DNA of 64,000 nt from Trypanosoma brucei (GCA_000002445.1 AL929603.2:288001-352000), one strand, 5' to 3'; shown: positions 7,509-50,097, counted from the stretch's first letter. Translations and numbers: made by a program. The notes: generated from the sequence alone by a model not told the origin.

Positions 7509-8393
7509 GGGTGTGGCAGGACACGTAACGTGAAGCAGCATAGAAATTGCTATATTTTATAACGCATCCCGGCCAGTGGCTATGCAACTCAGCTGGTGAT
7601 GGTCTTGTACGAAATTCTCAATGCTCGTATCGTGTGACGTAAAACAGCACAACTGCTGTTGTATTTTCTTGCTATACATGACGACAAAACGAAAAAAAAA
7701 GAGATTGCACAGGTATGCTTACGTGTATGTTTCTACATTGCGGTGGGCCGCATGCTAGTGAGGAGGGAATGCCAAACGTAGGTCTGATCCCTTCCATTCA
7801 TTGTCGTCATTCTTAGTTGATAGAAGTGACTGATAACCAAGCGCCTGCGCAAAACCGTTCTGCTACTACAGACCCTTCATGCGCGGAGGGCACTGTAGTT
7901 GCTTTATTGCCAGAGGGCGGGAAACAAAGCGGTCGACGTACACACACGTACATACATATTTGCGTGTACATGTGCACATATTCTTTTCTTGACCCCCAGC
8001 GATTTGTTTTTTTTCTTTTGATACCGCCGAAATTTTATGTTTTTTTTTCACCAGCACGCAAAAAAGCACGCGAATCTATGCCAATCTTGTAGAACGTTAT
8101 ATGAGTACGGAATGGAGCGCTAGGGGGGATGACGAGTGGGCGCCCCTCAGAGGGAAGTATCGGAATGGGACGAACCGCTCCTTTGTGGGAACACGGGCCA
8201 CCCTTAAGACAATACCTTGCAATAAAGGTCTTTTTTTTTACTACTCGCGTTGCGCATCGCACATAGGTCTGCATTCTTTCTTTTTCCCTTCCCCGCTGTA
8301 GGGCATAGGTGTTTCTTCGGTTGAGGCATTATCGTTGGCGGAGATCGAAGTAGGTTAACATACGGATACAAGTGCGAGTGAGCTGAAGTGGCT

Positions 8394-8967: not shown

Positions 8968-10341
8968 ATGAGTCGTTTTGCCGCAAGCGGTGACGGGAAG
9001 GTTGTGGCAAGGAAGGAAAGAGCTTTAATGTCGGTCAAGAACTTCATTGAGTTGATCCCACTTGACATCGACCTCGAAACGACACGGCAACTTGTTTTAA
9101 AGGGAAAAAATATCACGGCAATTCCGCCAAATATCGGTACTCTTCTTCGAGAGGTTCGGAGGTTGGATCTATCAACTAATGATGTGCGTGATATAACACC
9201 GTTGGCGACGCTCGCCAACCTCACATCTATAAATCTCACGCGAAACCCTCACCTCCTATCCATAGCACCCCTTGCGTCTCTACACCTTACCGTAGTCGTC
9301 GTGGCTCACTGTGGCCTCCGATCGCTTGTCGGCCTTGAAGGTAGTGCAGGGACGCTCAAAACCCTCGTGGTGAACGACAACAATTTGCTCCTGCGGTCAC
9401 CCTCTGGAAAATGCGTAGAAGGAGCGGGTGCTGACGAAATCGCAACTGCAGTGAAGAACTATGACGTTATCGCGGACCTTACGGAGTGCGAAACGCTCGT
9501 TCTCTCCAGGAACCCGCTCCTTTGTAGCCTATATGCGGGACCAACAGAGGAGGATAAGACTCATCCACAAAAGAAGGCTGAAGCGGGAGAGGAAACAAAA
9601 TGCGAACCAGATTGGGAACACCCTCTGTCTGCAATCGTGAAGATGACCTGTCTGAAGAAACTTTCACTTAGCGGCTGTGGCTTAACGTCTTTACCGCGAC
9701 ACTGGTTTATACCCAAGGTCACAGAGCTGCGGCTGAGTCAGAACAAACTGAAGAGTTTGGTTCCAGAAGGTGTTCTTTTTCGTTCTGTGAAAATTTTGGA
9801 CGTTAGCCACAATGAATTGAAGGAGGCGTCTACGTTGCGGCGGTGTCGCTTTGTTTACCACTTAGGTGTTCGCGGTAATCCATTTGTGGAAGATGGTAAT
9901 GTGTCTACGGGGGCAAAGAGAAAGGCGGGGAAGGGAGACGACGACAACAAGAGCGAAAGCCCACCTCCAGCGAAAAAGAATCTTGGGGTAGTGCTGCAGT
10001 ACCTCATGCGGATTATGCCCCACTTAGAAATGGTGGACGGCACACCTTTGGCGCAACTGCTGCCGACCGAGCAAGACGATGAGCGGAAGGAAACTGTGGA
10101 GTTTACGGCCAATAAACAGGAAGAGAGTGCTGAAAGTGTGGCAGATGACGGCGGATCTAAAGTACCGGAAGAGGAAGATAATGCATTGGAACCTCCGGAA
10201 ACATCAGAGTTGGGCAAACCTGCCATCGTCCGACGGGGGCAAACAAACTTACTCGCTACAAAGAAGAGAAGGCTCTCTGCTGAGGGCGCAGCCGTCACGC
10301 AAATACTGCTTAAAAGAAAGACTGAGGCCTCAGGTTGGTAA
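8968..10341 (+). CDS. leucine-rich repeat protein (SDS22-like LRRs) with acidic/basic C-terminal tail
   Basis: ATG at 8968. Consecutive ~22-aa LRRs (LDLSTNDVRDITPLATLANLTSINLTRNPHLLSIAPLASL..., LRLSQNKLKSLVPEG, LDVSHNELKE). The C-terminal region is charged, with KKRRLS. Confidence 0.55.
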   Translation: MSRFAASGDGKVVARKERALMSVKNFIELIPLDIDLETTRQLVLKGKNITAIPPNIGTLLREVRRLDLSTNDVRDITPLATLANLTSINLTRNPHLLSIAPLASLHLTVVVVAHCGLRSLVGLEGSAGTLKTLVVNDNNLLLRSPSGKCVEGAGADEIATAVKNYDVIADLTECETLVLSRNPLLCSLYAGPTEEDKTHPQKKAEAGEETKCEPDWEHPLSAIVKMTCLKKLSLSGCGLTSLPRHWFIPKVTELRLSQNKLKSLVPEGVLFRSVKILDVSHNELKEASTLRRCRFVYHLGVRGNPFVEDGNVSTGAKRKAGKGDDDNKSESPPPAKKNLGVVLQYLMRIMPHLEMVDGTPLAQLLPTEQDDERKETVEFTANKQEESAESVADDGGSKVPEEEDNALEPPETSELGKPAIVRRGQTNLLATKKRRLSAEGAAVTQILLKRKTEASGW

Positions 10342-10770
10342 GCGAAACGCATTGCCGACACTGTGCCTCAGCTTCTCGGTGCGACAAAAGAAGTGGCCCA
10401 GGTGTGCCGATGGAACGTCTTAAATTTTTCAAGTAGTACATCAGTTAAGTTTTACACGTAGAATCTCTCTGTATTGTCGACAGACACTGCGTGTTTGCCT
10501 ATCTCCTCATACCTTGCGTGTTGCTAAGGATTGGTGATAACTTTTTCCCGCTACAACAAAAATATTTGTTTGTTAAAAACCTATAATCAGAACCATATTC
10601 TGCCGGTTAGTTGTATACCCACATTAGTGAATATGAGGTTGGTTCTCACATAACCATGGGGAGCCGCACACATCATGAATACCCGATAATAAACCTGTAC
10701 AGCTTAATGTATACTTAAACTTCTATGCTCTTTCCCCCCTTTTTTACCATTCTCACTACTGTGAACAGTA

Positions 10771-11280
10771 ATGTGGCGGGTGAAACCCTTAGTTTGGTTG
10801 GCTGCTCGCGATGTCAACACCCTCCGTACTGTCTCTTCACTTCACTCCCGAACCCGGCAAGAGGATGTCACCATCAGTGGAAATGACAAAGTGACAAGAA
10901 ATAGGGAGCGTAACTACGCAGCGGCACCGTCTGGATGCTTTCGCTTTGATTTACCGACTGCATCGCTGCATTCGGAACTTTCAAGAGGCCGTCGTTATGA
11001 TGTACCGAAGGGAAAATCATGTAGCGGCCAATGGGCCTCAAAAGGTAAAATATGCACAACTACCAATAATGGGAGAGCTGCAGTGGGAACAGGTAAGGAA
11101 CCTTCAATGGGACCGCTTCCATCTTCCCGGAGTTCCGGCACCCGATTCCCAGTTGATTATCGACGGATGAAAGAGTCTCACAAGGTGGAGGCTGGTAATG
11201 CTGTGAATTCAACAATATCGAGTAGTGACAGCAGGGCACCGTCGAAACGAATTAGTGTTCGAGTCATCGCTTTGGAGTAA
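10771..11280 (+). CDS. hypothetical protein (Ser/Arg/Gly-rich)
   Basis: ATG at 10771 lies immediately after a polyY tract (10728-10770, ...ctctttccccccttttttaccattctcactactgtgaacagtaATG). Composition is biased and no homolog is recognised. Confidence 0.3.
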   Translation: MWRVKPLVWLAARDVNTLRTVSSLHSRTRQEDVTISGNDKVTRNRERNYAAAPSGCFRFDLPTASLHSELSRGRRYDVPKGKSCSGQWASKGKICTTTNNGRAAVGTGKEPSMGPLPSSRSSGTRFPVDYRRMKESHKVEAGNAVNSTISSSDSRAPSKRISVRVIALE

Positions 11281-11705
11281 CCGGAACAAACATCGTCACC
11301 CCCTCCCTTTTATTCATCACACACATAGTTTCTTCACAGTTATTTTGTTTTCTCGTACCATTGCTCGCTCGATTGTACTCTTTTCTCTGCCTAATTTGTT
11401 TCTTTCCATGCCGAGAGTGGAGTCAGGCACATATAGGTGTTTGTACACTTTCTCGCGCCGCAACTTACTTGCGTAGTAACTTCTGAGACTAAGCAATGCC
11501 TCTTTTTGAAAAATTGTGAAGGAAAATCCCTCTTTTTTTCTTACCTTGCTGCTCTTTTTAGGTTAACTCGGTGGTTTTCCCGCTAGACCTCTTCTCACCA
11601 TACCCTTTCGCATGTCGTACCTTCTGTATGGACGGCGTCCGTGTTTGTGTGGGTAGAGCGGGTGTGGAAGTTGTGATTGCGCCTTTTGATGGTTGCTTTT
11701 CCCAC

Positions 11706-12025
11706 ATGATGTACCGGTTCTACAACGAAGACATATCATTTTGGATATGCGGAACTCAGATCTCTGTGTTGGCACAATTGTCTTTTGCTATGAGAGTGAA
11801 GGGCGCGTTGAGTGGGAAGCCATGCCGAATTTAGTGCGAGGCCATCCTAATTAAGGTACCCGAGAGCGCGGTGAGTTGTGTTACTTTCCGTATTGGGGTA
11901 CAGTTGTGTATACTGTTTGATTCTATTCGCTTTGGTATCTAGCACAGCCGGTGGCTAGGACGAAAGTTGCTCGAGGAAAAGTGCTTGCTTTTACGCTGTC
12001 TTTCGTATTTGCTGCCCTTTTCTCA
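11706..12025 (+). repeat. dispersed ~320-bp repeat, copy 1 (full-length unit)
   Basis: Near-identical to 41619-41939 (one mismatch, tattggGgtac vs tattggAgtac). The unit begins acATGATGTACCGGTTCTACAACG and ends ...GCTGCCCTTTTCTC. It ends 72 nt upstream of the ATG at 12097. Confidence 0.9.
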
Positions 12026-17306: not shown

Positions 17307-17461
17307 TTTCTGTGTTGGCACAATTGTCTTTAGCTATGAGAGTGAAGGGCGCGTTGAGTGGGAAGCCATGCCGAATTTAGTGCGAGACCATCCTAATTAA
17401 GGTACCCGAGAGCGCGGTGAGTTGTGTTACTTTCCGTATTGGAGTACAGTTGTGTATACTG
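17307..17461 (+). repeat. dispersed repeat, copy 2 (155-nt core only)
   Basis: Shares TCTGTGTTGGCACAATTGTCTTT(T/A)GCTATGAGAGTGAAGGGCGCGTTGAGTGGGAAGCCATGCCGAATTTAGTGCGAG(G/A)CCATCCTAATTAAGGTACCCGAGAGCGCGGTGAGTTGTGTTACTTTCCGTATTGGAGTACAGTTGTGTATACTGT with copies 1 and 3. Both flanks are unrelated to theirs. Confidence 0.85.
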
Positions 17462-17842
17462 TGTGCTGTCGATCTTGTTGGGACCGTCTTTTATACTTTG
17501 ATTGGCTTGGTGCTCCTCCGTCCAAGTGGAAGTGTGTCATTGGAAGGCGTTGTTCACAAATATTGACGAGGATCAATTGTCCGTTTTATTGTTTCCGAAG
17601 CTGAAGGGCCGCAGTTTGTCCAGTAGTGTTGGGATTCACGCGGTCTTCGCGATGGGCTTTTGACCTCTGTTTTACCTGTGCTGATTTTTTGGTTAAGCGC
17701 ATTTAAATATCATATGAGATCTTCGCTTTAAATCATTTTTTTCTTGGATGTTGGATACTGCTGCAAACTCTCTTCCCCTTCTTTGCTCTGTTGTTTTCCC
17801 CCTTTGGAATACTTGTGTGAATCTTTTTGTAAGAGACCGGTT

Positions 17843-41618: not shown

Positions 41619-41939
41619 ACATGATGTACCGGTTCTACAACGAAGACATATCATTTTGGATATGCGGAACTCAGATCTCTGTGTTGGCACAATTGTCTTT
41701 TGCTATGAGAGTGAAGGGCGCGTTGAGTGGGAAGCCATGCCGAATTTAGTGCGAGGCCATCCTAATTAAGGTACCCGAGAGCGCGGTGAGTTGTGTTACT
41801 TTCCGTATTGGAGTACAGTTGTGTATACTGTTTGATTCTATTCGCTTTGGTATCTAGCACAGCCGGTGGCTAGGACGAAAGTTGCTCGAGGAAAAGTGCT
41901 TGCTTTTACGCTGTCTTTCGTATTTGCTGCCCTTTTCTC
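41619..41939 (+). repeat. dispersed ~320-bp repeat, copy 3 (full-length unit)
   Basis: One mismatch relative to 11706-12025 (tattggGgtac vs tattggAgtac). It lies 350 nt upstream of the CTP synthase ATG. Confidence 0.9.
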
Positions 41940-44058: not shown

Positions 44059-44894
44059 AGGGAGTTGTGGCTTCAATAAGGAACAGAAAATTAAATATAT
44101 TCGTGGATAAAAAAGAGAGAAATGAGGGAGGGGGGAGGAGGAGGAGGGAAAAAAAAAAGGAGTTTTGTTGTTGTTAAGATGCGCTGTGTTTGGATACGGA
44201 GATGAAAACGAGTCTAGTGTATATATGTGTGTGTATGTGTGTGTGTGTAACAAGTGATACGCTTCGTATTCACGCTAGAAATGAGGTTAGTGGAGGAGAA
44301 CAAATTAATCGGGACGGCCATGACTTCCTCTTGAACGTTAACATAAACCGATTAATTCAATTCGTCAGACCAATGAAAAAAGAAAAGAAAAAAGAAAAGA
44401 AAAGAAAAAAGAAAAAAGAAAAAAGAAAAAAACATTTTAGGTGTCACAGCAGGGCCATTGGTCTGGTGGAGGTGGTGGAGGAACTACGTTACGGAATGTG
44501 CTGCTCGTTGTAAAGGAACAATATGAACGCTATTACACATACCACTTTTTTTTCCCCCTTTTTTTTTACTCGTAGCCGGTTTTTTGTTTTTGTTTTTCTT
44601 TCCGTGGAGGCGGGTTGCTTTCCGCAAGAAAACTTCAAGTAAAGAAGTGAGGGGTGAAAAAAAAAAACAACAAAACAACAAAAAAGTTTCATGTGTTCTC
44701 CTTTTTTTTTTTTTCTGCTTTTGCTTTTATTTTCTCCTCTTGTTGGGACCTGCGTGCCGTTCTGAAATTTGTATAACTCATGACAATGAAACTTCTACAA
44801 TAAAAACTCACAATATGAATGGAAGAAGAAGAGGCGATTTGACACCGCTGCGGGATGCGAAACTCTCCGGGAAACAAAAAAAAAGGGCTGGAAG

Positions 44895-44921
44895 ATATAT
44901 AAATATATATATATATATATT
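44895..44921. repeat. (AT)n microsatellite
   Basis: gatatataaatatatatatatatatat. Confidence 0.9.
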
Positions 44922-45340
44922 TGAGAATAGTAAAGAAGAGGAAAAAGAGAATTTTTTTTTTAAAAGAAAGTTTTTGTGTGAAGTGTGGAGAAGGGCTTTT
45001 TTTTTTTTGAAAAAAAAAAAGGTGCCGCTTTCGACACCAATGTGGATATTTGGCGCGCGCCTCTTCCTCCTCCTCTTTTGTCGTTTTCGTTTTCTTCTTT
45101 GGTGGTAACTACATCTGTATATAATATATATATATATATATATATATCCATGAAGGGGAAGTAAAAGAGAAAAAAAAAAGAGTCTAATAACGATAATAGC
45201 AATAATAATTATTATTATTTTAATAACAGTATTCGTCTCACTTCAAACTGAAACCGATATCACCAACTGCTAACCGCTATGGTTCCCAAGCTGCTTTACA
45301 CAATTAGTAAAAGACTGTGAGATTAACATTCCTTTTGTGC

Positions 45341-45353
45341 ATGTGTTTGTGTT

Positions 45354-45388
<35 letters not shown>
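45341..45388. repeat. (TG)n(TA)n compound microsatellite
   Basis: atgtgtttgtgtttgtgtat followed by (at)15. Confidence 0.9.
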
Positions 45389-45390
<2 letters not shown>

Positions 45391-46686
45391 CTTCGCTTCA
45401 ACACGTGATTATGAGTACCAAAATAAAGAGGAGGAGGAGAAAGAGAAAGAGAAAGAGAAAGAGGGGAAAATAAAAATATATATATACCGACATGCGGACT
45501 TTTAAATGAAAACTTGAGCAAATTTACACATAAGCACACACAAGAACAAAATGACGAATTGAATCATCCAGCACAGTTGTGTTTAATAAGGTTATTGAAT
45601 TGGTGTAGTGCATGAATGGCAGGCTACGTAATTATTGTTACTATTATTATTATTATGATGATGATGAGGGGGGTTACGCAAGTAACTAATGGCCCAGATG
45701 CGGATGTGCTGAAGGGAAAGAGCGCTTGAGTAAGAAATAAATATTATTGAAAGAAAGAAAGAAAAAGAAAAGAAGCAAAAATAAGGGGGAATGAATGTGG
45801 AGGGACGTCACGTTACGGTCGGCTGCTTTTTGTCTGTTTTTCTCTTCTGTTTTTCTCTTCTTTTTTTTTCCTTTTTTAATTATTTTTCCCTCCTTTCCCC
45901 CTTTTCCCCGCCATTCCTCATCTCTTTTCCCACAACATACTCGCGCGTATGTTCCTCCTTTTTTTCTCTTTTTTTTCCTTTTTTTAATTATTTTAGGGGT
46001 GAGGGAAAGAGGAGGATGGGGAATCGTATTGATTGTTGATAACGCAACAAAAAAAAAATAAAAAATAAAAATAAAGTCCATTAACGAACTATAGAATTTT
46101 TTTTTATTTTCAAAAAAAGAAGATATTCGATACATGCCGTAACACTTGTCGAAGAAAGCGAAGCATCTGAGGGACACCATTGGCGAAATTTTTCAAATCG
46201 CACCTGTGCGGGGTACTCATGTCGCTGAAGTTATCTTTTTTTTTTCTACTTTTTTCTTTTTGTTCTTTTTTATTTTTCTTTGTATGTGTTTGTGCGTTTG
46301 TGTGTCTCTTTGTGTTTTTTTAAACAAATAAAAAAGAAAGAGAAAAGGGGAAAAAGAAATTATTATTGTTTCCGTTTTCCCTTCCTTCTTTTACTTCTTG
46401 GCCAAAGATAATTCCCTCTATTAAAAAAAAAACAAAAAAACAAAAGCTTGTGGTTCAGTGGTACATCGCTAACGGATCGTTTTATTTTAATTTAATTTAA
46501 TTTCTTTTTCTTTGTTTTTGTTTCGTTTTTTTTTAAAAAAAAATAACACCCCCCTCCTCCTTGTGGAGACTGTCCGCCTGACTGCTTTTATTTCATTTTT
46601 ATCCTTTTTCTTTCTCCTTTCTCCCCCTCATTTCTCTTTTTAAAATAATAATAATAATACTACTAATAATAAACAATAAAGACAAA

Positions 46687-47988
46687 ATGAAGGACATTAG
46701 TTGCCCTACGGGGGAAACCGGCTCGATATTTGAGAAATCCAAGAAGTTTCAACATTTCTTTACGATGGATGGAGCTGTGGGGACATTGGTGGAAAGATGT
46801 GGTTTGGATCCATCTAAAATGGGTTCCATGTGGTCAACATCTGCACTTATCACGGATGAAGAAATAGTTCGTTACGTTCATAAATCCTACTTGGATGTGG
46901 GGGCCGATGTTATTTTAACAAATACTTATCAAATGCACGCCGCTGGATGTGCTCAGGCGGGAGTAACCATGAATGAAGTGGTAAACACCGCCGTCCGTGT
47001 TTTGTGCGACGGCATCACGCCTGAACGTGCGGCGGCAACAAAAGAGGCAAAAGTATGGGCTCAACATGTTATGAATAACAAAAGGAGCGAATTCGTAAAT
47101 GTGTTTGCTCCACTTTTTTATGGACCACGAGATGATGCATCAAAATGCCCGGTGTTGGTTGGTGGTAGTCTCGGATCATATGGAGCTTCACTCGGGAATG
47201 CGCAGGAATACCGCGGGGAATATGAGGTTAATGAAGACATCATCAGGGATTATTATGTAGGAAGGTTTATGGCCTTTGTGAACCATGTGGATGAGAAGGA
47301 GGCCCACTTGAAGGTGGATTTCATCATGATTGAAACAATTCCATTGTTAAATGAAGCAATAGAAATATTTACATGGCTGAAATATCAGAAGGAAGATGAG
47401 ACACTTCGGTCGGCACCGGTGTGTTTGTCATTTATTTCTTGTTTACGGGAACCGCGTCCTGACGTGACTGTTGATGATGCCACTTTGAATGAATGGTGGC
47501 TGGCGGCGGAATCAAACATCCGTCTTATTGATGGCAATACGTTTGAGAAGGCGTTTAATTCTCTAATGGAACTTCAGTTACCGCAGCTGGTTGGGTTTGG
47601 AACCAACTGCTGTAGTCCTCTTGAAGCGAGTGTCGTTGCAAGTGCTTTTCTCAAAAAGAAAAAGCATAAGGTGACGGACCCATCACTAGCGCTATTTTTG
47701 TATTCAAATTCTGGCGAAAACTTCAAGGAGGGGGAATGGCATTGGGGCGGTCAATTACCACGGGGTTCACATTCACCAACATCCAGCCCTAAGGAAACAT
47801 TACCATTTACAACATTACAGAGATTAATGTTGTGTTGCGAAGCTGATGTCCGCACCGCTGCTTTTTTTGCCTATCAGTTACTGCTTCAAAGGCCCGAAGC
47901 GGACGATTGGCTTTTCGATATTATCATCTGCGGCGGTTGTTGTCGTTCAACTCCTGAAGATATTGCTATGATACGCAGTTTAGTGTGA
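46687..47988 (+). CDS. homocysteine S-methyltransferase family protein
   Basis: ATG at 46687. MDGAVGTLVERCGLD...MWSTSALITDEEIVRYVHKSYLDVGADVILTNTYQ matches the HMT N-terminal consensus (LDGG.ATELE..G..L...LWSA..L...P..V..VH..Y..AGADII.T.TYQ). The C-terminal IICGGCCRSTPEDIAMI matches the GGCC metal-binding motif. Confidence 0.7.
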   Translation: MKDISCPTGETGSIFEKSKKFQHFFTMDGAVGTLVERCGLDPSKMGSMWSTSALITDEEIVRYVHKSYLDVGADVILTNTYQMHAAGCAQAGVTMNEVVNTAVRVLCDGITPERAAATKEAKVWAQHVMNNKRSEFVNVFAPLFYGPRDDASKCPVLVGGSLGSYGASLGNAQEYRGEYEVNEDIIRDYYVGRFMAFVNHVDEKEAHLKVDFIMIETIPLLNEAIEIFTWLKYQKEDETLRSAPVCLSFISCLREPRPDVTVDDATLNEWWLAAESNIRLIDGNTFEKAFNSLMELQLPQLVGFGTNCCSPLEASVVASAFLKKKKHKVTDPSLALFLYSNSGENFKEGEWHWGGQLPRGSHSPTSSPKETLPFTTLQRLMLCCEADVRTAAFFAYQLLLQRPEADDWLFDIIICGGCCRSTPEDIAMIRSLV

Positions 47989-50097
47989 GGTTGTTTTTTT
48001 TTATTTTTCGTTATTTGACAGCACTCACTTATCTTTACCATGGTGTTTCTCCGTTATAGGTATGGAGTTACGATTTTTTTTCCTTTTTTTTCCTTTTCAA
48101 ATATTGTTTTTCTTATATTGTTCCTTTTTCTTTTTCGTATCTTTTCTCATTTTTCTTTTTTTTTTCTGGGGTGGAGCTATGATTTTCATGACTAGTGACA
48201 GAGCCCCCATTCATTTCCCTTCTTTTTTCTTTTTTCTTTTTTCCTTTTTTCCTTTTTTCTCTATTCCTTTCCTTTCCTCAACGAAAAAAGAAGAAAGTGA
48301 AAATGTTGTAAGTGAATTAACCAAAATTCAAAAAAAAAAGCAGCAAAGAAAGAAAAATAAAAGGAAAAGAGGATACAACAACAGAAGCAATCAAACAAAT
48401 AAACAAAGAAATAAACACATCAACACAAGAATTCAAGCCAGAATAGAAACAACAAAAAGAAATGATGTTGAAGTGAAAGCGGCTACTTTTTAGTGTGCAG
48501 CGGCCAGTGTTTTTTTCTTTTTTGGTCCGGCACCTTCATTTCGTTTTTATCGTTTTGCTGCAAGAGAAAAAGAAAAGAGGAAGGGATTATTATCTGAATT
48601 TATTTGATGAAGGATAATTTGAAAGTGTTTTCACTTTTATTGTTTAGTTTCGTTTTGTTTGTAGTGGTTATTGTAACGCCGGTGACGGTTAAGATAGAAA
48701 ATCACACGTAACGGAGGGATGATTTTTAAAATCAAAGAGATTTTTTAATATTAAAGAGAAGAAAAACAAAGACGTAAATTGAAAAAAAAAAAGCACACAG
48801 TGGTGAAGTTTGACCACAGACATGAATTTAATTTAACGTTCCAATGACAAACGAAACAAACACACGTTTATTAAACATTTTTGTGATCGTTGTCATTGTT
48901 GTTATCACTTACTCTCTTTTACCCTGTCGTCTTTCTTTCTTTTTTTTTTTTAGTGCTGTGATTACCAAATTTTTTCCCCTGTTTAAATAATATATCTAAT
49001 CATAAATAAATATATATATATTTCTATATTCCCCTCCCATTTCCCCCATTTTCCTACTAAACTATCATCCGTTATTTCTCTTTTTCTTTTCTTTTATTAT
49101 TTTTATTTTTTCCCCCTTTATCTTGTTTCATAATTTGTTTTTTTTTCTTTTTAAATCGAACGGATGATGTTTAAAAGGAGGGGAAAATGTTGTTTAAAGA
49201 TTATTTATAACCTCCATAGCACACGGACACACACACACACACACAAAAACAAAAACAAAAATAAAAAAGAAAAAAACGGAGGAAAATGAATTAAATAATA
49301 GATATATTATTATATCAGTAAGAGGGGAGAGATATATAACGTATAAAAAAGGAAAAAAAAAACAACGTGGAGGAAAAATAAGAATAATGTGAGGGGAAAA
49401 TACAATAGAATGTTTGAGTGCCGAATTTGTGTGCATGTGTTTTTAGCAACAGATGAAAATGCTGGCGACATTAGGGGGTGTAAAAAAAAAAAAGAAAAAG
49501 AAAAAAAAAGAAAAAAAGAAAAGAGGGTTCGTAGGAATATTCATTTCAAAAGCAATAAAACGGAGAACACAAATGTCTCTATGTGGAAATATTGGCGAGA
49601 GTACCGCTGTTGTTTTGATGATATGTTTCAATTTTTTTTCCCCCTTTACTTTTGGTTTTTCCATTAATAATTCTTCACTTTTTTACACACTCTTTCCTCT
49701 CTCTCTCTCTTTTTTTCTTTTATCATTTTATGTTTTGCAAGTTTCTGATGACACGTATGAAAGTTGCCTTCACTGAGGCACGAGTTTTGGTTTCGCAACT
49801 TTGCATTTTACAAACCGTCAAAACCCACATGAGTAAATGTTCCCTCAAATCCCTTTTCCTTTTGTTATTATTATTATTTTGTTGTTATTATTTTCACTGA
49901 TTTAAGACTATTCATCTCAATTCTTTTCCTTTTCCATTTTCCCTTTTCTTCTTTTTCCCCTTTTCCCCTTTTTTTTTTTCCACTTTTAAATTATTTACAT
50001 CCGTCTTTAGTTGTTGCCTCTGTTGTTGCCAATTTCTTTCCCCCCCTCCCATACGTGTAGCTGCAAAGCAAAGAAAAAATAATAATAAATTAAAACA
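47989..50097. repeat. 2.1-kb low-complexity intergenic spacer (T/C-rich then A/G-rich blocks, (AC)n-(AAAAC)n at 49227-49262)
   Basis: Strongly biased composition. The track ORFs within it (48062..48493, 49389..49667, 49453..49776, 49652..49900) are homopolymer-like artefacts. Confidence 0.8.

What the first reader, a model, noticed from the sequence alone, without database searches (positions are those of the whole stretch)
11706..12025. Dispersed ~320-bp interspersed repeat: three same-orientation copies (11.7 kb, 17.3 kb, 41.6 kb), each in the 5' region of a gene
Seen in sequence. Copies at 11706-12025 and 41619-41939 differ by one mismatch over ~320 bp and have sharp boundaries (start acATGATGTACCGG, end GCTGCCCTTTTCTC). 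Their flanks are unrelated. A third copy (17307-17461) keeps only the central 155-nt core, and both of its flanks are unrelated too. The near-identity of two copies 30 kb apart means recent transposition, gene conversion or strong constraint. All copies are on the transcribed strand. They end 72, ~380 and ~350 nt upstream of the start codons of three unrelated genes (metallophosphoesterase, hypothetical, CTP synthase). The pyrimidine-rich 3' tail of the element (ctgtctttcgtatttgctgcccttttctc) could donate the polyY/trans-splice signal to the downstream gene, as T. cruzi SIRE does, or could be a shared UTR regulatory module. The core shows no poly(A) tail or target-site duplication. It does not obviously match a tRNA, snRNA, SL RNA or 5S. 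It has weak Pol III A-box-like (TGGCACAATTG) and B-box-like (GGTACCCGAGA) motifs. I could not assign it to RIME/ingi/SIDER from memory, so it is either a known short retroposon or an undescribed SINE-like or structured-RNA element.
Basis: partly seen in the sequence, partly recalled or inferred. Interest (0 to 1): 0.7.

Follow-up and report, generated by a model that had tools for sequence, protein, structure and literature searches.

The report
Three copies of a known snoRNA gene
The dispersed 320-bp repeat in this Trypanosoma brucei chromosome 1 window is not a mobile element: its core is a small nucleolar RNA gene, almost certainly the already described TB1Cs1H1, which guides one pseudouridine in 18S rRNA, and gene conversion keeps the copies alike.

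Summary
The window (T. brucei TREU927 chromosome 1) holds three same-strand copies with unrelated flanks: 11706-12025, 41621-41939 (1 mismatch in 319) and a 157-nt core at 17309-17465.

The SINE/retroposon reading is not supported. There are no target-site duplications and no A-tails.

The central ~70 nt of the core is the only part conserved in other trypanosomes. It sits at the same syntenic intergenic positions in T. vivax, T. theileri, T. rangeli and T. conorhini. It forms a single hairpin followed by an invariant AGA box. Its two invariant internal-loop strands (GUUGAGU and AAUUAAG) are complementary to 18S rRNA on either side of one uridine, UUAAUU-U-G-ACUCAAC, 14 nt from the AGA box.

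Published maps place pseudouridine SSU-1592 in exactly that context and name its guide TB1Cs1H1, that is, chromosome 1, cluster 1. So the repeat is a known H/ACA-like snoRNA gene with co-duplicated flanks.

The near-identity comes from gene conversion. In T. b. gambiense, copy C keeps diverged ends that TREU927 has overwritten. In T. rangeli and T. conorhini the units are also near-identical within each species but unalignable between species outside the snoRNA.

Verdict: ordinary and already known, with low interest.

The parts
11704..12025 (+). Repeat unit, copy A (full unit), between the 169-aa T. brucei-specific gene (10771-11280) and the 1118-aa phosphoesterase-like gene (ATG 12097)
41619..41939 (+). 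Repeat unit, copy C (full unit), between the DnaJ gene (stop 41105) and the CTP synthase gene (ATG 42289). It differs from A at one position (unit position 192)
17309..17465 (+). Copy B, core only (unit positions 58-214), between RAD1 (stop 16851) and a 485-aa gene (ATG 17843). Its flanks show no residual homology to the outer parts of the unit
11799..11868 (+). Predicted H/ACA-like snoRNA, copy A (about 70 nt; AAGGG...CCCGAGAGCG). Proposed to be TB1Cs1H1
   Evidence: nhmmer (E 2.6e-21), covariance model (89.8 bits), folds
17345..17414 (+). Predicted H/ACA-like snoRNA, copy B. It has one G-to-A change in the upper stem compared with A and C
41714..41783 (+). Predicted H/ACA-like snoRNA, copy C
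11807..11813 (+). 5' strand of the pseudouridylation pocket, GUUGAGU, complementary to 18S rRNA ACUCAAC (3' of the target). The same motif is at 17353-17359 and 41722-41728. It is invariant in all five species
11849..11855 (+). 3' strand of the pocket, AAUUAAG, complementary to 18S rRNA (U)UUAAUU (5' of the target). The same motif is at 17395-17401 and 41764-41770
11863..11865 (+). AGA box, 14 nt downstream of the top of the pocket's 3' strand. Also at 17409-17411 and 41778-41780. It is invariant in all species
11706..11760 (+). Tentative decayed relic of a C/D snoRNA that precedes the H/ACA gene in T. theileri, T. rangeli and T. conorhini. It has a C-box-like AUGAUGU, no CUGA D box, and only weak homology (p about 0.015)
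11997..12025 (+). Pyrimidine-rich 3' tail of the unit. In copy A it is followed by AAAG 68 nt before the ATG. In T. b. gambiense the equivalent 33 nt of copy C carry 14 differences

Best explanation
Each copy of the repeat carries a gene for a trypanosomatid single-hairpin H/ACA-like (AGA-box) small nucleolar RNA of about 70 nt. The gene lies in the sense orientation in an intergenic spacer of an RNA polymerase II polycistronic unit, and the RNA would be cut out of the precursor. The two strands of its internal loop pair with 18S rRNA on either side of one uridine in helix 31 (UUAAUU-U-G-ACUCAAC). This directs the CBF5 pseudouridine synthase to make SSU pseudouridine 1592, which lies 4 nt 5' of the hypermodified m1acp3-pseudouridine 1596. 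This RNA is almost certainly the published TB1Cs1H1. The remaining 250 nt of the unit are lineage-specific flanks that were co-duplicated with the gene, possibly including a decayed C/D snoRNA partner. The copies stay nearly identical within a species because of ectopic gene conversion (concerted evolution), not because of recent transposition. The sharp boundaries are the ends of the homology over which conversion can run. What is shown here: the repeat, the conservation, the hairpin with its AGA box, the complementarity to the target, and the conversion pattern. What is taken from the literature: pseudouridine 1592 and the name and expression of its guide. What is inferred: sequence identity with TB1Cs1H1, processing from the polycistron, and the direction of conversion.
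For: (1) The organism is T. brucei TREU927 chromosome 1. (2) The core is conserved at syntenic positions. T. vivax has it between RAD1 and the next gene (nhmmer E 4e-10). T. theileri has it upstream of the phosphoesterase gene. T. rangeli and T. conorhini each have one copy upstream of the phosphoesterase gene and two between RAD1 and the next gene (81-90 bits). (3) Between species only about 70 nt align. The invariant blocks are AAGGG, GUUGAGUGGGA, CC(U/C)AAUU, CCC and AGA. The apical stem-loop varies but 90.5% of cells stay paired, against 24-70% when the partners are slid. Two pairs carry changes on both sides (8:62 U:A/C:G and 24:45 U:A/C:G). (4) I predicted the target from sequence alone as UUAAUU-U-G-ACUCAAC. 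The supplement of Rajan et al. 2023 then showed SSU pseudouridine 1592 in 'UUUAAUU-Y-G' followed by 'AC(m1acp3Y)CAACAC', with the guide listed as TB1Cs1H1. Chikne et al. 2016 credit TB1Cs1H1 to Michaeli et al. 2012 and report RNA-seq reads for it. (5) The geometry fits the published consensus for H/ACA-like RNAs: 14 nt from pocket to AGA, 7+7 bp guide duplexes, a 10-nt upstream pocket side, 3 bp of stem II next to the pocket, and a 10-nt apical loop. (6) Concerted evolution: within T. rangeli and T. conorhini the units are 96-99.5% identical over 380-550 bp. In T. b. gambiense, assembly GCA_003543875 and one Logan assembly, copy C differs from A at 14 of the last 33 nt and at 2 positions (6 and 9) near the 5' end, while TREU927 and T. 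equiperdum carry the A-type tail. (7) There are no TSDs or A-tails.
Against: I could not obtain the published TB1Cs1H1 sequence or its coordinates, because the Michaeli 2012 supplement is not held. Identity therefore rests on the chromosome in the name and the target match. Rfam has no family for this RNA. The thermodynamic fold is only mildly better than shuffles (z about -2 for copies A/C and T. vivax, about 0 for copy B). With six sequences the covariation measures do not exceed the shuffle controls. Stem I in T. brucei has only 3 perfect pairs before a C-A mismatch, whereas the published consensus says 5-8, usually perfect. The two pocket strands can also pair with each other. No copy was found in the syntenic L. 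donovani locus. The genome-wide copy number was not measured.
Confidence: 0.9

Rival explanations
1. The repeat is a short non-autonomous retroposon (SINE-, RIME- or SIDER-like) that recently inserted into three intergenic regions.
For: The boundaries are sharp, the flanks are unrelated, and two copies 30 kb apart are 99.7% identical. Short-read assemblies break inside the unit, as they do at repeats.
Against: There is no target-site duplication and no A-rich tail at any copy. Only three copies lie in 64 kb and none in the other T. brucei locus examined (L006). Copies occupy the same syntenic positions in T. vivax, T. theileri, T. rangeli and T. conorhini, so they predate the divergence of these species. 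The near-identity is explained by conversion, because T. b. gambiense copy C keeps old, diverged ends.
Confidence: 0.03
2. The repeat is a shared UTR or intergenic regulatory module. Its pyrimidine-rich tail supplies the polypyrimidine tract and trans-splice acceptor for the downstream gene, or the unit is a 3'-UTR element of the upstream gene.
For: In copy A the 29-nt pyrimidine-rich tail is followed by AAAG, 68 nt before the ATG. In TREU927 the same tail lies 350 nt upstream of CTP synthase. Michaeli 2012 notes that some snoRNAs lie within annotated 3' UTRs.
Against: Copy B lacks the tail entirely. In T. b. gambiense the tail of copy C has 14 differences in 33 nt and is less pyrimidine-rich, and longer polypyrimidine tracts lie closer to the CTP synthase ATG. 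Nothing outside the 70-nt snoRNA is conserved between species. The neighbouring genes are functionally unrelated. At most this is a side effect at locus A, not the reason the repeat exists.
Confidence: 0.05
3. The repeat is neutral duplicated DNA, a patch copied during double-strand-break repair or segmental duplication, with no function of its own.
For: The neighbouring 169-aa gene is itself part of an 828-bp dispersed duplication with sharp ends (window 10576-11403 matches L006 5804-6633 at 98.2%). This shows that such patches arise on this chromosome.
Against: In intergenic DNA that is otherwise unalignable, the 70-nt centre is conserved across Trypanosoma, with invariant blocks that match an rRNA modification site.
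Confidence: 0.02
4. The unit encodes a 42-aa micropeptide that starts at its first ATG (41621-41749).
For: The ORF begins 2 nt inside the unit boundary.
Against: No homologue shares even three 5-residue words with it among 5.8 billion protein clusters, and the exact sequence is absent from the collection. Copy B lacks the first half of the ORF. T. b. gambiense copy C has two base substitutions (unit positions 6 and 9), within the first three codons. The reading frame is not conserved in other species.
Confidence: 0.01

Closest known systems
TB1Cs1H1, the T. brucei H/ACA-like snoRNA that guides SSU rRNA pseudouridine 1592 (Michaeli et al. 2012; Chikne et al. 2016; Rajan et al. 2023)
   Same: It is on chromosome 1. 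It has the single-hairpin, AGA-box architecture. Its predicted target is the U in UUUAAUU-U-G, 4 nt 5' of m1acp3-pseudouridine 1596, which is the site assigned to TB1Cs1H1.
   Different: No difference is demonstrated. The published sequence and coordinates could not be retrieved, so identity is inferred. As far as I could read, the literature does not discuss the three dispersed copies, their variable conversion tracts, or their synteny across Trypanosoma.
Yeast snR36, guide for 18S pseudouridine 1187 in the helix 31 loop, 4 nt 5' of m1acp3-pseudouridine 1191 (recalled from memory, not checked here)
   Same: It targets the equivalent uridine in the universally conserved UUAAUUUGACUCAAC segment.
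   Different: snR36 is a canonical two-hairpin H/ACA RNA with H and ACA boxes. This one has a single hairpin with AGA, like all trypanosomatid guides. There is no sequence homology outside the guide strands.
Reiterated snoRNA clusters of trypanosomatids that mix C/D and H/ACA-like genes (Liang et al. 2005; Myslyuk et al. 2008)
   Same: The gene is multi-copy, sense to the polycistronic unit, and intergenic. In T. theileri, T. rangeli and T. conorhini a C/D snoRNA lies immediately upstream of it.
   Different: The T. brucei copies are dispersed over 30 kb between unrelated protein-coding genes rather than arranged in tandem. The C/D partner appears to have decayed in T. brucei and T. vivax.
T. 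cruzi SIRE, Leishmania SIDER and T. brucei RIME short retroposons
   Same: They are short dispersed repeats in intergenic or UTR regions of polycistronic units.
   Different: This repeat has no TSD, no A-tail and very few copies. Its positions are syntenic and ancient, and its conserved part is a snoRNA.

Membership tests
Trypanosomatid H/ACA-like (AGA-box) snoRNA | [quoted passage not shown] | tested here: met
   The hand-drawn structure keeps 90.5% of cells paired across 6 sequences, against 24-70% for slid partners. RNAalifold and single-sequence folds give the same hairpin. The apical loop is about 10 nt. The covariation statistics are weak (2 pairs with changes on both sides, not above the shuffles).
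Trypanosomatid H/ACA-like (AGA-box) snoRNA | An AGA box immediately after the hairpin, 1-3 unpaired nt after stem I and 3 nt from the 3' end | tested here: met
   AGA is invariant in T. brucei, T. vivax, T. theileri, T. rangeli and T. conorhini, one nt after the CCC of stem I. The position of the mature 3' end cannot be tested from sequence.
Trypanosomatid H/ACA-like (AGA-box) snoRNA | Pocket strands complementary (3-9 nt on each side) to rRNA flanking a uridine that lies 13-16 nt from the AGA box | tested here: met
   GUUGAGU pairs with ACUCAAC and AAUUAAG pairs with (U)UUAAUU, giving 7+7 bp. The spacing is 14 nt (window 11849 to 11863). The rRNA context and pseudouridine 1592 come from the supplement of PMC10662448, and the rule from PMC2613932.
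Trypanosomatid H/ACA-like (AGA-box) snoRNA | Stem I of 5-8 bp, usually perfect, and a perfect stem II of 3-7 bp adjacent to the pocket | tested here: inconclusive
   Stem II has GGG/UCC (3 bp including one G:U) next to the pocket. Stem I in T. brucei is GGG/CCC, then a C-A mismatch, then G:U and C:G. Other species have 4 perfect pairs. This is shorter than the stated norm but above the experimentally tolerated minimum of more than 2 bp.
Trypanosomatid H/ACA-like (AGA-box) snoRNA | Expressed as a small RNA whose stability depends on CBF5 | not testable with these tools
   The literature reports RNA-seq reads for TB1Cs1H1. No expression data could be mapped to the window.
TB1Cs1H1 specifically | Sequence or coordinate identity with the published RNA | not testable with these tools
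   The Michaeli 2012 supplement is not held. The name does not appear in any main text. Only the chromosome in the name and the target site match.
Non-LTR retroposon or SINE (RIME / ingi / SIDER / SIRE) | Target-site duplication and an A-rich 3' tail | tested here: not met
   Within 30 nt of either flank no shared k-mer is longer than 5 nt, and none abuts the boundaries. The 3' ends are followed by AAAGCC, TGGCTT and CTGTCG.
Non-LTR retroposon or SINE (RIME / ingi / SIDER / SIRE) | The 77-79-nt 5' signature (Pr77) shared by ingi, RIME, L1Tc and SIDER | not tested
   No reference sequence was available in the tools. From memory there is no resemblance.
Box C/D snoRNA (5' 60 nt of the unit) | A C box RUGAUGA near the 5' end, a D box CUGA near the 3' end, and an adjacent terminal stem | tested here: not met
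   AUGAUGU is present at the unit start, but there is no CUGA anywhere in the unit. The C-like box is mutated to AUGAUAU in T. b. gambiense copy C. Copy B lacks the region.
Any curated Rfam family | A covariance-model hit at or near the gathering score | tested here: not met
   There are no gathering-level hits in the window. At E up to 10 only an irrelevant lncRNA fragment outside the core appears. The T. theileri and T. conorhini loci give the same negative result.

The most novel reading that the evidence does not exclude
Beyond the known snoRNA, two modestly new points survive. First, the ancestral unit was a C/D plus H/ACA two-gene cluster. Its C/D member is intact in T. theileri, T. rangeli and T. 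conorhini but has decayed in the salivarian trypanosomes T. brucei and T. vivax, which would imply a lineage-specific loss of one rRNA 2'-O-methylation guide. Second, ectopic gene conversion between dispersed copies 30 kb apart has, in the TREU927 / T. equiperdum lineage only, copied the pyrimidine-rich tail next to the phosphoesterase gene into the region upstream of CTP synthase. That could alter RNA processing signals there.
Probability: 0.3. Interest if true: 0.3.

Novelty: already known. Interest (0 to 1): 0.13.

Why it matters
It matters little beyond correct annotation. The repeat should be labelled as three gene copies of the H/ACA-like snoRNA that guides pseudouridine 1592 in helix 31 of the small-subunit rRNA, a fully modified site next to the hypermodified m1acp3-pseudouridine in the decoding region. 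It should not be labelled a mobile element. The case is a neat small example of concerted evolution of dispersed, non-tandem snoRNA genes, with conversion tracts that differ between T. brucei subspecies. It also shows that Rfam lacks this family. For anyone planning a knockout of this guide, it shows that at least three loci must be targeted.

Tried and rejected
- **Rfam** gave nothing relevant, either at gathering level on the whole window or at E up to 10 on copy A. ARAGORN found no tRNA.
- **Folding the whole 320-nt unit** gave no signal on the + strand (z = -0.03) and a weak one on the - strand (z = -1.5). A structured 320-nt RNA is therefore rejected.
- **The 42-aa ORF** at the unit start has no homologue and is not in the protein collection. 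A coding role is rejected.
- **An exact-match scan of JGI metagenome contigs** with a 48-nt core pattern found nothing, as expected for a trypanosome sequence.
- **A larger segmental duplication around copy A.** Logan contigs (L002-L005, L009) seemed to join the paralogous 169-aa gene locus to the repeat. The finished T. b. gambiense chromosome shows that the paralogue homology stops at window 11403, 300 nt before the unit, and that the paralogue locus has no unit. I treat the Logan joins as probable assembly chimeras or strain differences.
- **Residual homology of copy B's flanks** to the outer parts of the unit was not significant (2570 of 3000 and 502 of 3000 shuffles scored at least as high).
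- **Leishmania.** nhmmer and the covariance model found no copy in the syntenic L. donovani locus.
- **A functional C/D snoRNA in the T. brucei 5' part** is rejected because there is no D box and the C-like box is mutated in T. b. gambiense.
- **Literature searches** for 'TB1Cs1' in main texts returned nothing. The name was found only in supplementary tables.

Full report
**1. Checking the observation**

The three copies exist as described. BLASTN of the unit against the window gives 11706-12025, 41621-41939 (99.7%, one mismatch in 319) and 17309-17465 (unit positions 58-214, 97.5%). All are on the + strand, and nothing else scores better than E=0.69. The repeat finder and MAFFT agree. A query carrying 1.5 kb of flank on each side of copy A matches nothing beyond the unit.

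The proteins encoded in the window are exact matches to T. brucei brucei TREU927 chromosome 1 entries (CTP synthase CAJ16071, CAJ16040, CAJ16037). All large ORFs around the copies are on the + strand. Each copy therefore sits in an intergenic spacer of one polycistronic unit. The upstream and downstream neighbours are:

- Copy A: a 169-aa T. brucei-specific gene and a 1118-aa phosphoesterase-like gene.
- Copy B: RAD1 and a 485-aa gene.
- Copy C: DnaJ and CTP synthase.

**2. First tests gave nothing**

Rfam and tRNA scanning were negative. The 320-nt unit does not fold better than shuffled sequence. The 42-aa ORF that starts at the unit boundary has no relative in 5.8 billion protein clusters. 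There are no target-site duplications and no A-tails.

**3. Comparison within the T. brucei group**

I fetched the orthologous loci through exact-protein look-ups. All three copies are present in T. b. gambiense DAL972 and in assembly GCA_003543875.

Copy C differs between lineages. In T. b. gambiense, GCA_003543875 and one Logan assembly it matches copy A closely from about position 10 to 287. It differs from A at positions 6 and 9 and at 14 of the last 33 positions. In TREU927 and T. equiperdum the tail is identical to that of copy A.

Fourteen changes in 33 nt cannot have arisen by point mutation between subspecies that differ by about 1%. They mark the edge of a gene-conversion tract. The duplication is therefore older than the 99.7% identity suggests, and in TREU927 the 'sharp boundary' is simply where the homology ends.

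Short-read assemblies break inside the unit. Some Logan contigs appeared to link the unit to the paralogue of the 169-aa gene. The finished T. b. gambiense chromosome shows that this paralogue homology ends at window position 11403 and that the paralogue locus has no unit.

**4. Comparison across species**

I found orthologues of the 1118-aa protein and fetched their loci. nhmmer with the T. brucei unit hit T. vivax between RAD1 and the next gene, which is the position of copy B (E 4e-10). A profile and a covariance model then found more copies (81-90 bits):

| Species | Upstream of the phosphoesterase gene (position A) | Between RAD1 and the next gene (position B) |
|---|---|---|
| T. vivax | none found | 1 |
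| T. theileri | 1 | none found; a truncated extra hit lies at the end of the locus |
| T. rangeli | 1 | 2 |
| T. conorhini | 1 | 2 |
| L. donovani | none found | none found |

The window itself holds only the three known copies.

Between species only about 70 nt align. Within T. rangeli and T. conorhini the surrounding 380-550 bp are 96-99.5% identical between positions A and B. This is the pattern expected for a conserved small gene inside flanks that are homogenised within each species.

**5. What the 70 nt are**

The consensus is AAGGG-NNN-GUUGAGUGGGA-[variable stem-loop]-CC(U/C)AAUU(A/U)A(A/G)G-NN-CCC-(G/A)-AGA-NNN. It folds into one hairpin. With my structure 90.5% of cells are paired, against 24-70% when the partners are slid. 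Pairs 8:62 and 24:45 switch between U:A and C:G. With only six sequences, however, the covariation measures do not exceed the shuffle controls.

The invariant blocks are the two strands of the internal loop and an AGA triplet one nucleotide after the lower stem. This is the published architecture of trypanosomatid H/ACA-like snoRNAs: a single hairpin, an AGA box 3 nt from the 3' end, the target uridine 13-16 nt from AGA, and guide duplexes of 3-9 nt per side (PMC2613932).

I then read the pocket as a guide. The 3' strand AAUUAAG pairs with CUUAAUU/UUUAAUU. The 5' strand GUUGAGU pairs with ACUCAAC. A 'UG' is left unpaired, and the spacing to AGA is 14 nt. The predicted target is the universally conserved 18S segment UUAAUU-U-G-ACUCAAC in helix 31.

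I made that prediction first and then checked the literature. The supplementary tables of Rajan et al. 2023 (PMC10662448) list T. brucei SSU pseudouridine 1592 in the oligonucleotide UUUAAUU-Y-G, followed by AC(m1acp3Y)CAACAC(Gm)G. The site has stoichiometry near 1 and the guide is given as TB1Cs1H1. By the field's naming convention that means chromosome 1, cluster 1, H/ACA number 1. Chikne et al. 2016 (PMC4855143 supplement) credit TB1Cs1H1 to Michaeli et al. 2012 and give read counts that are higher in bloodstream forms. Michaeli et al. also describe another chromosome-1 snoRNA, TB1Cs2H1, and note that snoRNA genes lie in intergenic regions or 3' UTRs, sense to the polycistron.

I could not retrieve the TB1Cs1H1 sequence. 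Identity is therefore an inference from chromosome and target, and I rate it at about 0.9.

**6. The rest of the unit**

In T. theileri, T. rangeli and T. conorhini a well conserved element of about 90 nt with C/D snoRNA features lies just upstream of the H/ACA gene. It has a C box (G/A)UGAUUA, a C' box UGAUGC and a D-like AUGA. The alignment score between T. theileri and T. rangeli is 116, against 15 ± 2.6 for shuffles.

The first 25 nt of the T. brucei unit align weakly with its first guide region (16 of 21 identities, p about 0.015). T. vivax shows a similar partial match (p about 0.01). T. brucei has no CUGA in the unit, and the C-like AUGAUGU at the unit start is mutated in T. b. gambiense copy C. 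I therefore regard the 5' part as a probable decayed C/D partner, and I hold this view tentatively.

The 3' 155 nt have no counterpart elsewhere and no box motifs. The pyrimidine tail may well serve as the splice-acceptor tract of the phosphoesterase gene at locus A. It is absent from copy B and differs in T. b. gambiense copy C, so it is not what defines the repeat.

**7. Verdict**

The retroposon and UTR-module interpretation is not supported. The 'gene conversion / constraint / structured RNA' alternatives are right.

The feature is three copies of a known H/ACA-like snoRNA gene that guides SSU pseudouridine 1592, kept alike by ectopic gene conversion. Novelty is 'already known'. The only incremental points are the subspecies-specific conversion tracts, the conserved synteny across Trypanosoma, the likely decay of a C/D partner in salivarian species, and the absence of this family from Rfam.

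Noticed in passing
window 10576-11403; L006 5804-6633; L017 4651-5526: The 169-aa 'T. brucei spp.-specific' gene just upstream of copy A is part of an 828-bp dispersed duplication (98.2% identical) with sharp ends. Its paralogue lies about 118 kb away in T. b. gambiense, next to an Acetyltransf_13 gene. In T. vivax that acetyltransferase gene lies between the LRR gene and the phosphoesterase gene, which is where the window has the 169-aa gene. This suggests a rearrangement in the T. brucei lineage with the duplicated gene at both breakpoints.
   Followed up: partly
L019 about 9490-9580; L020 about 7555-7650; L022 about 9155-9250: A conserved C/D-type snoRNA of about 90 nt (C box UGAUUA, C' UGAUGC, D-like AUGA) lies immediately upstream of the H/ACA-like gene in T. 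theileri, T. rangeli and T. conorhini. It has no Rfam match, and its rRNA targets were not determined.
   Followed up: partly
L001 start; L002, L004 and L009 ends; L005 end; L012 start: Public short-read assemblies (T. equiperdum GCA_001457755 and several Logan assemblies) break inside the unit, at unit positions 288, 96, 39 and 67. The break at 287/288 coincides with the point where the two tail variants of copy C diverge.
   Followed up: no
window 44200-50000: Long low-complexity tracts (poly-purine, poly-pyrimidine and (AT)n) flank the S-methyltransferase gene at 46687-47988. Some form imperfect inverted repeats, for example 46236-46314 with 49220-49298 at 72% complementarity. The spacers here are unusually long for this polycistronic unit.
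   Followed up: no
window 17390 (copy B) compared with 11844 and 41759: Copy B carries an A where copies A and C have a G in the upper stem of the snoRNA, which breaks a C:G pair. T. vivax has U:A at this pair. Copy B folds no better than shuffled sequence (z = -0.07), whereas A and C give z = -2.0, so B may be a weaker or partly disabled gene copy.
   Followed up: partly
L019 23274-23294: The covariance model gives a truncated hit (positions 1-21, E 0.0015) at the very end of the fetched T. theileri locus. This suggests a further snoRNA copy about 10 kb downstream of the phosphoesterase gene.
   Followed up: no
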